Shown: positions 331 to 39,274 of the stretch, one piece after another
Position numbering within the stretch: position 1 is the first letter of the stretch
Layout: every line of letters begins with the position of its first letter
Source of the DNA: Glaucostegus cemiculus
Lineage: Eukaryota
Assembly (NCBI GenBank): GCA_976551045.1
Contig: CDPCPM010000289.1
Location: 2,480,001 to 2,541,267, forward strand
Direction of reading: 5' to 3'
DNA length: 61,267 bases
The notes under the pieces: generated by a model
The model's input: only the letters and a program-made list of their open reading frames with translations
The model's database searches: none
Told to the model about the DNA's origin: nothing
Made by a program: the position numbers and the translations under genes

Positions 331-374
331 GTGGGCAAAAGGGTCGGAACTGTGCTGTACGACTCGTGCAGCTG

Positions 375-809
375 GGGACCAGGGACCAACAGCACAGTCC
401 GAGCAGCGCGGGACCAGGGACCAACAGCGCAGTCCGAGCAGCGCGGGACCAGGGACCAACAGCGCAGTCCGAGCAGCGCGGGACCAGGGACCAACAGTGC
501 AGTCCGAGCAGCGCGGGACAAGGGACCAACAGCGCAGTCCGAGCAGCGCGGGACCAGGGACCAACAGCGCAGTCCGAGCAGCGCGGGACCAGGGACCAAC
601 AGCGCAGTCCGAGCAGCGCGGGACCAGGGACCAACAGCGCAGTCCGAGCAGCGCGGGACCAGGGACCAACAGCGCAGTCCGAGCAGCGCGGGACCAGGGA
701 CCAACAGCGCAGTCCGAGCAGCGCGGGCCCAGGGGCCAACAGCGCAGTCCGAGCAGCGCGGGACCAGGGACCAACAGCGCAGTCCGAGCAGCGCGGGACC
801 AGGGACCAA
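375..809. repeat. 35-bp minisatellite, about 12.4 copies (GGGACCAGGGACCAACAGCGCAGTCCGAGCAGCGC)
   Basis: Near-identical tandem units read directly; explains ORFs within 87..910. Confidence 0.97.
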
Positions 810-36082: not shown

Positions 36083-36925
36083 TGTGTGAAACTAATTCAG
36101 TGCTCCCTGCAGAATGGCAAAATAAAAATACCATATTCACTCCTGATGCTGAAATAGCATATCTACATCGCTGGGTCACACTTCATGCAACTAAACATTT
36201 CAAGTACAATTAGAAATTAAAATCCAAACAAATATTTCTATCCTTTTATCCCTCATTCCATTTATTTAACTTGGTTATTTTACCTCAAATTATATCCAAA
36301 TTTTTTTTTTTAGAATGTTTGAACTTTTGAACTCACATCTACGCCCCAGACATCCACAACAGACACACCTTTGCATCATCTAAGTTCAAGAGGGTAGAAG
36401 CTGGAAATGGGAATCAGAGCTGAGCCTGGACTCATGTTGTGTTAAAGTGATTACTCTACTGGAATAGCCATCCAGAAGCCGACATTACTGATCTGCAGAC
36501 ATTAAAATCTTCTGAGTAGACAAGGAAATTTGAAAGCAATTAATTAAAATAAAAATTAGTCCAGTATCAATACTGGAGGCTATGAAGATACAGGCTCTGC
36601 AAAATTCCATTCAGTTCACCAGTCCTCTTTGGGCGTTCAAACCTGCTGTCCTTGCCTGGCCTGGACTGACCTTTGTGACTCCAGACCCAACAAAGTGGTT
36701 GAGTCTTAAGTGCCCTCTGAGATGACCAAACAGGTAACTAGGTGCATAAAATGCCAACATCCCCAAGAACCCACGAATGACTGGTGCGAGGGTTGACAGA
36801 TGACGATCTAAAAGGATCTGCAGTTCTGGCAGCCCAAGAACTCCAGTGAAGCACGAGGTCAGGCACTGATCACACCCTCACCCTGGGCACCAACGTCTAA
36901 CCCGAAGGAAGGAAAGCAGGCTCAC

Positions 36926-36980
36926 CGTGTGAGAGAGAAGCAACCTTGTCAGCCCAGAACAGCGCACTCTGGTATTGTTG
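36926..36980 (-). CDS. CDC16: CDC16 exon 2 (QQYQSALFWADKVASLSH)
   Basis: ctttctgcag| ... |gtgag; 55 nt. Confidence 0.95.
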
Positions 36981-37240
36981 CTGCAGAAAGCCAGATAATG
37001 AAAGTGTTATCAACGTGACACTCGCTGAATAGTTTTGGAGGTGCAAACTGACGAGGGAGCGCTGCCAGTGAGGGAGACTGGAGGGGCTGCTGGGGCGGGG
37101 GGATGTAAGGAGAGGTCGGAGGAGTGATGGCAGGGGGACGGAGCACCTGCCGGGGATGCCCGAGGGAGAGCCACACTGCCAGAGGGGTAGTGCTGGCCTG
37201 GGAGACAGTGTGGTGTAGTGCACGGAGACCCACACACACA

Positions 37241-38105
37241 ACTGATCCAGGTACAATATCACCCACCCCACCGATCCGGGTACAACCACCCACACCCCCA
37301 CGCAGCTGGTCGGGGTACAGCTGCCCATCCCGCACCGCCGTGCACCCGGTCCGGGTACAGCCGGACACCTCACACCCCCGGTCCGGGTACAGCCGGACAC
37401 CCCACACCACACACCCCTGGTCCGGGTACAGCCGGACACCCCACACCCCCGGTCCGGGTACAGCCGGACACCCCACACCCCCGGTCCGGGTACAGCCGGA
37501 CACCCCACACCACACACCCCTGGTCCGGGTACAGCCGGACATCCCACATCCCACACCCCCGGTCCGGGTACAGCCGGACACCCCACACCACACACCCCTG
37601 GTCCGGGTACAGCCGGACATCCCACATCCCACACCCCCGGTCCGGGTACAGCCGGACACCCCACACCCCCGGTCCGGGTACAGCCGGACACCTCACACCC
37701 CACACCCCCGGTCCGGGTACAGCCGGACACCCCACACCCCACACCCCCGGTCCGGGTACAGCCGGACACCCCACACCCCCGGTCCGGGTACAGCCGGACA
37801 CCCCACACCCCACACCCCCGGTCCGGGTACAGCCGGACACCCCACACCCCCGGTCCGGGTACAGCCGGACACCCCACACCACACACCCCTGGTCCGGGTA
37901 CAGCCGGACACCCCACACCCCCGGTCCGGGTACAGCCGGACACCCCACACCACACACCCCTGGTCCGGGTACAGCCGGACACCCCACACCCCCGGTCCGG
38001 GTACAGCCGGACACCCCACACCCCCGGTCCGGGTACAGCCGGACACCCCACACCCCCGGTCCGGGTACAACCCCACACCCCTGGTCCGGGTACAACCCCA
38101 CACAC
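37241..38105. repeat. 32/39-bp minisatellite in CDC16 intron 1 (about 20 full units, 2 short, 3 degenerate)
   Basis: Core GGTCCGGGTACAGCCGGACACCCCACACCCCC repeated, with optional 7-bp inserts. Confidence 0.97.
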
Positions 38106-38171
38106 CTGGTCCAGGTACAGGCGGACCCGCCGCCGCAGCCGCTCCCGGTCCCCGCGCTGTTTCTGGCTCAT
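38106..38171 (-). CDS. CDC16: CDC16 coding exon 1 (MSQKQRGDRERLRRRVRLYLDQ)
   Basis: ATG in ACAATGA context; matches recalled MNLERLRKRVRQYLDQ; donor CAG|GTGTGT; 66 nt. Confidence 0.9.
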
Positions 38172-38500
38172 TGTCCCCGCTCCGCCGCCACTTCCGGCCG
38201 CCGCCTTTCCGCCACCCAGTCCCTTCCCCCGGAGCGCCAGGATCCGCACGAAACGTCCTACCCGGCGGAAGGCTTCAGGCGCGGAGCGAGCGGGAGGGGG
38301 CGGGGTTTCCCAATGATTGGCACCGGCGGCAGCGGCGGCAGCGGCGGGAACCGGCCCGACCCTCCGTCTGACCCCGGGAGATCCGCCCGGCGACGGCTGA
38401 GGTGAGGCGGCAACGGGCCGGCCGGACCGGGCCTGGTCACCAGGGCAACGCTGCAGCGGCGGGACCCGACTCTCCTTTGGTGCTGAAAGCTGCGGCCTGA
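38110..38500. promoter_or_regulatory. CpG-island promoter of CDC16
   Basis: Very high GC and CpG density; ETS motif ACTTCCGG 38190-38197; GC box GGGGCGGGG 38297-38305; opposed CCAAT boxes CCAATGATTGG 38310-38320. Confidence 0.85.
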
Positions 38501-38511
38501 CCTCTGGGCAG

Positions 38512-38945
38512 AGTCCGGGGCAGGGTCTGGGGTCAGGGGCAAGGTCAGGGTCCAGGGGCAAGGCCAGGGTCAGGGTCCGGGGCAGGGTCTGGGGTCAGGG
38601 GCAAGGCCAGGGGCAGGGTCCGAGGCAGGGTCGGGGCAGGGTCTGGGGTCCGGGGCAGGGTCTGGGGTAAGGCCCGGAGTCAGGGGCGGTGACCTGGGCA
38701 GGGTCGGGGGTAAGGCCCAGGGTCAGGGGCAGGGACCGGGGTAAGGCCAGGAGTCAGGGGCGGTGACCTGGGCAGGGTCGGGGGTAAGGCCCAGGGTCAG
38801 GGGCAGGGACCGGGGTAAGGCCAGGAGTCAGGGGCGGTGACCTGGGCAGGGTCGGGGGTAAGGCCCAGGGTCAGGAGCAGGGTCCGGGGTAAGGCCCGGA
38901 GTCAGGGGCGGTGACCTGGGCAGGGTCGGGGGTAAGGTCTGGGAC
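38512..38945. repeat. G-rich array upstream of CDC16; 6-bp primitives with a 74-bp higher-order unit
   Basis: GGAGTCAGGGGCGGTGACCT recurs at 38676, 38750, 38824 and 38898. Confidence 0.93.
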
Positions 38946-39274
38946 AGGAAAGGTGCTCAGTTAGGCATTTAATTACTAGTTTAATCAATTCGGCACAACA
39001 GCATGGGCTGAAGGGCCTGTTCCTGTGCTGTACTGTTCTATCTGCTTTCTATAAGGTCAGGGCAGGAGCAAGGCTTAGGGGTAGGGCGTGGGGCAGGAGC
39101 AGGGTGTGAGGCAAGGAATTGGAATTGGTTTAACACACAAAATGCTGGAGGAACTCAGCAGGTCAGGCAGCATCTATGGAGGGAAATAAACAGTCAATGT
39201 TTTGGGCCGAGACCCTTCATCAGGACTGGAAAAGAAAAGGGCAGAAGCCGGACAAACAAGGTGGAGGGAGGGTG

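What the first reader, a model, noticed from the sequence alone, without database searches (positions are those of the whole stretch)
37241..38125. CDC16 intron-1 minisatellite amplified from the exon 1/splice-donor junction, with the donor GT lost in every copy
Seen: on the gene strand the true junction is GTCCGCCTGTACCTGGACCAG|GTGTGTGGGG. The roughly 22 downstream units read GTCCGGCTGTACCCGGACC(A/G)G|GGGTGTG..., which is the same sequence (VRLYLDQ versus VRLYPDQ/R) with the +2 T of the donor changed to G. Distal degenerate copies carry other donor-killing changes: TACCTGGATCAG|TT near 37245 still encodes YLDQ, and another has CAG|CT near 37305. Inference: the exon end seeded an 850-bp array that is tolerated because the decoy donors are dead. 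The array also multiplies exonic motifs and G-runs beside a fairly weak donor of an essential mitotic gene. A single founder mutation could explain the main block.
Basis: partly seen in the sequence, partly recalled or inferred. Interest (0 to 1): 0.7.

Follow-up and report, generated by a model that had tools for sequence, protein, structure and literature searches.

The report
Splice-junction minisatellite in ray CDC16
The end of the first exon of a ray's cell-division gene CDC16 is copied 25 times into the next intron, and most but not all copies have lost the splice signal; repeats of this kind are known from human and lancelet genes, and this one is likely harmless because the cell likely uses the first, best signal.

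Summary
The array is real. 25 copies of the exon 1/intron 1 junction of a batoid CDC16 fill 865 of the intron's 1125 bp. They match the exon end far above shuffles, and the exact core occurs only here. 'GT lost in every copy' is wrong. Copies 1-21 carry one shared +2 T>G and copies 23 and 25 have other losses, but copy 22 keeps GT and copy 24 keeps it with a one-base shift. Every main copy has a weaker GT two bases on. The true donor is not weak: 5th-6th of 17 CDC16 donors on two crude scores. With copies collapsed to lineages, GT loss is not clearly above chance (P about 0.1; 0.02-0.03 in post hoc subsets). This is a known kind (human F7, CBS, 6-16, LMNB2; amphioxus 'mirages'), where intact pseudo-donors are often tolerated. 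This scan found the kind before: 29 notes in at least 15 genomes. One lead remains: here and in a second array of this genome, the copies nearest the true donor are the dead ones. Splicing itself was not observed.

The parts
38106..38171 (-). CDC16 (APC6) exon 1 coding part, 22 codons; its last 21 bases are the exonic half of the repeat unit
   Evidence: identical to the N-terminus of skate CDC16 P0021; PDB APC6 match
38100..38108 (-). true 5' splice site CAG|GTGTGT (G+1 at 38105); its use is inferred from protein homology, not seen in RNA
   Evidence: 8.46 bits (5th of 17), U1 energy -8.8 kcal/mol (6th of 17)
37367..38101 (-). homogenised main block, copies 1-21 (two 25-bp, then 32- and 39-bp variants), all GG at +1/+2 with a weaker GT two bases downstream
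   Evidence: (variant map ABBBCBCBDBDEBFCFCBBCG)
37336..37366 (-). copy 22, which keeps GT at the homologous position (CGG|GTGCAC); low score
37232..37326 (-). degenerate distal copies 23 (CAG|CT), 24 (GT kept if one base is deleted) and 25 (CAG|TT)
   Evidence: a related organism's contig covers 37227-37268
36981..37231 (-). non-repeat remainder of intron 1 with the acceptor
36926..36980 (-). CDC16 exon 2 (QQYQSALFWADKVASLSH)

Best explanation
This is a minisatellite whose unit is the CDC16 exon 1/intron 1 junction; it likely grew by slippage and unequal exchange, and is likely near-neutral because splicing would use the first and best donor whether or not the copies are intact. Shown: the unit covers about -21 to +10 of the junction, its exact core is confined to this locus, and 21 central copies share one +2 T>G while the distal copies are older and diverged. 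Inferred: a local duplication of the GC-rich junction beside the CpG-island promoter came first. One variant, already changed at -16, -8 and +2, then swept the centre by concerted evolution, so the 21 dead donors count as one event. The true donor would win by being most upstream, cap-proximal and best-scoring on the matrix.
For: Similarity far above three null sets. The exact core has 20 hits genome-wide, all in this array. The exon peptide is conserved in 11 of 12 listed elasmobranch proteins that have exon 1, so the direction is exon to array. The variant map has a homogeneous centre and diverged distal end, the pattern described for amphioxus mirages (PMC3087553, passages). GT survives in copy 22, in copy 24 (shifted) and in shifted sites: 58 of 143 other array GTs score at or above the second-lowest true CDC16 donor. 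A related organism's contig continues after the donor with a short junction repeat that keeps GT (10 loose letters at a contig end). An LZTS-family array in this genome keeps two 9-mers identical to its donor. F7, LMNB2 and PDGF use only the authentic donor despite pseudo-sites (PMC1557585).
Against: All 8 copies that keep CAG at -3..-1 lack GT, through three different changes (T+2>G, G+1>C, G+1>T), and the copies that keep GT have lost the -2 A. Post hoc subsets give P 0.02-0.03. In the LZTS array the 8 proximal copies are also dead. In CBS and 6-16 pseudo-sites are used, in 6-16 the two most proximal (PMC1557585, introduction), which would give selection a handle. One distal GT (37266) pairs with U1 better than the true donor by energy (-10.4 against -8.8).
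Confidence: 0.62

Rival explanations
1. Same origin, but selection chose which variant could expand. Intact copies next to the true donor caused some mis-splicing of an essential APC/C subunit, so only donor-dead variants spread in the proximal part.
For: Three independent GT losses, each in a copy with intact CAG. P 0.02-0.03 if copy 22 is set aside. Proximal-dead, distal-intact order in the LZTS array. 14 of 25 shifted GT sites would frameshift. Selection against cryptic 5' sites in short introns is reported (PMC3245539, abstract).
Against: With all five lineages P is 0.10-0.11. Copy 24 is ambiguous, copies 24 and 25 share a -4 change and may not be independent, and the subsets were chosen after seeing the data. 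Each main block is one event. F7 pseudo-sites identical to, or stronger than, the real donor are unused (PMC1557585, Discussion).
Confidence: 0.27
2. The array has been co-opted as a regulator. Its G-runs act as an intronic splicing enhancer or first-intron G-rich element, or the intron is retained in frame to give a longer or degraded product.
For: 53 G-runs in the array; 7 in the first 100 nt of intron 1 against 0-4 in the other 15 introns; G4Hunter-type mean 0.85. Intron 1 is 375 codons and stop-free in the CDC16 frame. G-rich first-intron elements are described (PMC2275096, abstract).
Against: The donor is not weak, and there are 0 canonical four-run G4 motifs. The intron has only 5 stop triplets over all frames, so an open in-frame intron has about a 4-7% chance by my estimate. 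The 25- and 32-bp units break frame on any copy change. No long protein matched the read-through (0 of 2574 candidates; weak evidence).
Confidence: 0.08
3. An unrelated GC-rich satellite that resembles the junction by chance, or an assembly artefact.
For: The genome search gives lower bounds and skips common words (tool note). 9 single hits lie elsewhere at 1-2 mismatches, against 3 for the reversed control.
Against: The match is far above shuffles, and the 9 outside hits are single sites on 9 contigs. The internal variant structure is varied. A 62-nt contig of run X2 matches the array exactly at depth 16.5, against 2.5-4.3 for single-copy contigs (X2 may be the source sample).
Confidence: 0.03

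Closest known systems
Human F7 intron 7 37-bp VNTR (Borensztajn et al. 2006, PMC1557585; abstract, outline, search passages and the whole Discussion read)
   Same: The first unit spans the exon-intron boundary and the donor region is reiterated into the intron.
   Different: F7 pseudo-sites are identical to the real donor and functional but unused; here the homologous GT is lost in 23 of 25 copies (24 by ungapped count). F7 has 5-9 units in an internal intron; here there are 25 in a first intron.
Human CBS intron 13 31-bp VNTR (Yang et al. 2000, Lievers et al. 2001; seen only as the introduction and reference titles of PMC1557585; Yang not held)
   Same: Similar unit size (31 against 32 bp) and copy number (15-20). 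[quoted passage not shown]
   Different: Two pseudo-sites are reported as used in CBS; use here is untested.
Human 6-16 (IFI6), LMNB2 and PDGF intron 4 junction minisatellites (as summarised in PMC1557585; the 6-16 paper was not held)
   Same: Junction-spanning arrays of 10-25 units.
   Different: 6-16 uses the two proximal pseudo-sites, and LMNB2 and PDGF use only the authentic one; here the proximal copies are dead.
Amphioxus 'mirage' repeats, Adh3 and globins BflGb6/BflGb9 (PMC3087553; passages read)
   Same: Tandem duplications of exon-intron boundaries. Many but not all units keep splice signals, the centre is homogenised with the boundaries excluded, and no interference with splicing is reported.
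   Different: Here the host is a cartilaginous fish and most copies lack the donor GT; length instability is untested.

Membership tests
Junction-spanning minisatellites (F7/CBS type, mirages) | Head-to-tail array of units of minisatellite size | tested here: met
   TRF period 32, 20.8 copies, score 816; 25 copies of 25-40 bp
Junction-spanning minisatellites (F7/CBS type, mirages) | First unit overlaps a real exon-intron boundary | tested here: met
   The unit covers about -21 to +10 of the exon 1 donor. The boundary is fixed by homology: the 17-exon model matches P0021 at 535 of 541 aligned residues.
Junction-spanning minisatellites (F7/CBS type, mirages) | Locus-specific, not a dispersed satellite | tested here: met
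   20 of 20 exact hits lie in this array; 22 of 31 loose hits lie here and the other 9 are single sites; counts are lower bounds
Junction-spanning minisatellites (F7/CBS type, mirages) | Homogenised centre with diverged boundary units | tested here: met
   Variant map and haplotypes
Junction-spanning minisatellites (F7/CBS type, mirages) | Copy-number polymorphism (VNTR) | not testable with these tools
   One assembly; the contigs laid do not span the array
Junction-spanning minisatellites (F7/CBS type, mirages) | Normal splicing at the authentic donor | not testable with these tools
   Needs RNA junction reads; inferred from homologous proteins
F7-type arrays of intact pseudo-donors (narrow sense) | Pseudo-sites identical to the authentic donor | tested here: not met
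   0 of 25 copies carry the donor 9-mer
Selection-purged donor array | GT loss above neutral expectation in independent lineages | tested here: inconclusive
   4 of 5 lineages lost it ungapped, P 0.10-0.11; subsets give 0.02-0.03; copy 24 is ambiguous

The most novel reading that the evidence does not exclude
Junction minisatellites in cartilaginous fish carry a positional record of splicing selection. Only donor-dead variants can expand next to the true donor, while intact copies survive further away, as seen here and in the LZTS-family array. The many such arrays in these genomes would then be a natural assay of 5' splice-site competition against distance.
Probability: 0.27. Interest if true: 0.5.

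Novelty: new member of a known kind. Interest (0 to 1): 0.22.

Why it matters
On its own this is one more junction-spanning minisatellite, and little about CDC16 changes. It would matter if proximal copies are purged as a rule. That would test in natural sequence whether the upstream-donor-wins rule shown for F7 is leak-free, and it would explain why some arrays keep their donors and others lose them. This locus gives one founder event plus two clear further losses, too few to decide.

Tried and rejected
(1) RNA evidence: no RNA holder was listed. The two runs laid are contigs; no joint was listed on 36800-38320, and the joints shown (15 of 147) lie in a high-copy repeat. This says nothing about expression or splicing. 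(2) MaxEntScan was not available. I used a matrix from 16 other CDC16 donors and a U1 pairing energy, both crude; the energy favours G-U-rich sites. In one search the exon 17 donor was misplaced; it was corrected and the scores cited come, except the copy 22 score. One search failed with a script error. (3) In-frame retention of intron 1 was rejected as likely chance; the search for a long read-through protein found 0 of 2574 candidates (weak). (4) Are the window's other arrays junction-derived? The other 7 of 8 arrays tested reached at most 14/20 against any CDC16 donor or acceptor, against 18/20 here. Only CDC16 junctions and one + strand donor-like site were tested. (5) A Pfam scan of 62 frames upstream (61 listed ORFs plus one short frame) gave retroelement fragments and one weak DUF4773 hit below cut-off, and no divergent coding gene. 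(6) A gappy 92-nt X1 contig on 37726-37780 (3 mismatches, 8 gaps) was set aside as unreliable. (7) No related genomes are held, so intron 1 could not be compared across sharks and rays. (8) Literature. None of the 15 papers listed of 2,813 holds 'CDC16', and none of the 12 listed of 93 holds 'elasmobranch'. This is a weak basis for 'not in print'. No supplements were read.

Full report
Gene and setting. The region is the 5' end of CDC16/APC6 on the - strand. The frame that starts at 38171 matches solved human APC6 in two pieces. A spliced model of 17 exons matches skate CDC16 P0021 at 535 of 541 aligned residues, and the closest listed protein is a sawfish isoform at 440 of 441, so the animal is a batoid. 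Exon 1 codes for 22 residues (38171-38106), intron 1 is 1125 bp and exon 2 is 36980-36926. The exon lies in a CpG island (CpG o/e 0.92, GC 0.74). CFAP97D2-like exons lie upstream on the same strand.

The observation. Anchoring on TGTAC gives the junction plus 25 copies over 865 bp. Copies 3-22 match the last 21 exon bases at 18-19 of 21, and copies 1-21 match the first 10 intron bases at 8-9 of 10. The best match in 500 dinucleotide shuffles of the array was 16 (once). 0 of 20,000 shuffled units reached 18, and the rest of the window reached at most 15. The exact 19-base core has 20 hits in the genome, all in this array. A looser 22-base pattern has 31 hits: 22 here and 9 single sites on 9 other contigs, against 3 for the reversed control (the tool calls such counts lower bounds). 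A 62-nt contig of run X2 matches the array exactly at depth 16.5, against 2.5-4.3 for single-copy contigs. This fits a real repeat, but X2 may be the source sample.

Direction. The exon peptide VRLYLDQ is in 11 of the 12 listed shark and ray proteins that have exon 1. One shark has VRDYLDQ, the chimaera has VKQYIDQ, and two listed isoforms lack the exon (15 of 37 cluster members were listed). 24 of 25 copies have C at -8, which gives a Pro codon. So the exon is the source, and the array has not overwritten it (inference).

State of the donors. Copies 1-21 read GG at +1/+2. Their variant map (ABBBCBCBDBDEBFCFCBBCG) is a mosaic of 25-, 32- and 39-bp units sharing the same changes, so this is best counted as one founder event. 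Copy 23 has G+1>C and copy 25 has G+1>T. Copy 22 keeps GT (CGG|GTGCAC; a weak site, 1.1 bits). Copy 24 aligns best with one base deleted and GT kept. 'Lost in every copy' is therefore false. Every main copy also has a GT two bases on. In the five CAG-type 39-bp units the sequence after CAG is GG followed by the first eight bases of the intron, so a two-base slip would explain it too, although the aligner preferred substitution under my scoring.

Donor strength. I scored sites with a leave-one-out matrix from the other 16 CDC16 donors and with a U1 pairing energy (both crude). The true donor is 5th (8.46 bits) and 6th (-8.8 kcal/mol) of 17, so it is not weak. All array GTs score lower on the matrix: 7.77 at 37266, 6.63 for five sites, 6.47 at 37271 and 5.66 for 18 sites. 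Still, 58 of 143 reach the second-lowest true donor, and 37266 beats the true donor on energy (-10.4). The decoys are weakened, not all dead. Of 25 shifted sites, 14 would frameshift and 11 would add residues in frame.

Is the loss selected? Collapsing to five lineages and placing each lineage's differences at random, 4 of 5 losses has P 0.10-0.11. Leaving out copy 22 gives 0.02, and main+23+25 gives 0.03. Those subsets are post hoc, copy 24 is ambiguous, and copies 24 and 25 share a -4 change. For selection: all 8 copies with intact CAG lack GT, and the GT-keeping copies lack the -2 A. The test is inconclusive.

Comparisons. Run X1 is a related organism, about 90% alike in the introns. One contig covers exon 1 and five intron bases, then ends in 10 letters that read GACCGG|GTGT on the gene strand: a short junction repeat with the same -2 change but GT kept. 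This is one contig end, so it is weak evidence. Another X1 contig covers the distal copy region 37227-37268 with 8 differences, which suggests that the array's old end predates the split; its letters at the GT were not shown. After a donor inferred from the end of the reading frame there are 13 copies of a 47-bp unit. Copies 1-8 have G+1>A and copy 10 has G+1>T. Copies 11-13 keep GT, two with the donor's 9-mer unchanged. Copy 9 scored 'lost' ungapped but keeps GT with a one-base shift (read). So intact decoys exist in this genome, which is against 'tolerated because dead'. They are distal, which fits purging of proximal copies.

Side lead rejected. Intron 1 is 375 codons and stop-free in the CDC16 frame. 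It has only 5 stop triplets over all frames, so the chance of this is about 4-7% by my estimate, and the 25- and 32-bp units do not keep frame. No long protein matched the read-through (weak). The array adds 53 G-runs, 7 of them in the first 100 nt against 0-4 in the other 15 introns, but no canonical four-run G4 motif. An enhancer role is possible and untested.

Known kind. PMC1557585 (abstract, passages and Discussion) describes F7, CBS, 6-16, LMNB2 and PDGF minisatellites whose first unit spans an exon-intron boundary. It shows that F7 pseudo-sites are functional yet unused because the most upstream donor is chosen, and it reports that some pseudo-sites are used in CBS and 6-16. PMC3087553 (passages) describes amphioxus mirages, in which many but not all units keep splice signals and the centre is homogenised. 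A cap-proximal advantage for first-intron donors rests on the start of one abstract in a search listing (PMC2800227) and on my own knowledge. Selection against cryptic 5' sites in short introns is in PMC3245539 (abstract and opening), and G-rich first-intron elements are in PMC2275096 (abstract). The scan's own notes hold 29 such findings in at least 15 genomes (unchecked, 8 shown).

Verdict. This is a real junction-derived minisatellite and a new member of a known kind. Near-neutral tolerance through use of the first donor is most likely (0.62). Purging of proximal donors is a live rival (0.27), and it needs many arrays, not one, to test. Interest 0.22.

Noticed in passing
L015:1162-1765 (G000:C164): 47-bp junction array in an LZTS-family gene: the 8 proximal copies have G+1>A, and 4 of the 5 distal copies keep GT (one with a one-base shift), two with the donor's 9-mer unchanged.
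   Followed up: partly
window 38506-38948 (+): Second GC-rich array on the far side of the CDC16 CpG island, with 8 GGG|GTAAGG donor-like sites antisense to CDC16, downstream of a donor-like site at 38402. It does not resemble that site (13/20), and no gene was shown.
   Followed up: partly
window 36981-38105 (-): Intron 1 is 1125 bp and stop-free in the CDC16 frame; likely chance.
   Followed up: yes
window 55903-55820, 53881-53696, 52576-52382 (-): Exons matching the non-CDC16 half (PF13879) of the fused bird protein P0033; the name CFAP97D2 is recalled.
   Followed up: no
window 368-809: 35-bp array, 97% identical copies, starting about 90 bp after the exon 17 donor; not junction-like.
   Followed up: partly
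proteins P0063, P0072: A sawfish isoform (four accessions) and a shark isoform of CDC16 start at MQEPINK and lack the N-terminus, which hints at annotated 5' transcript variants; no link to the array was shown.
   Followed up: no
window 38308-38320: Near-palindromic CCAAT box readable on both strands about 140 bp upstream of the CDC16 start codon; the label is recalled.
   Followed up: no
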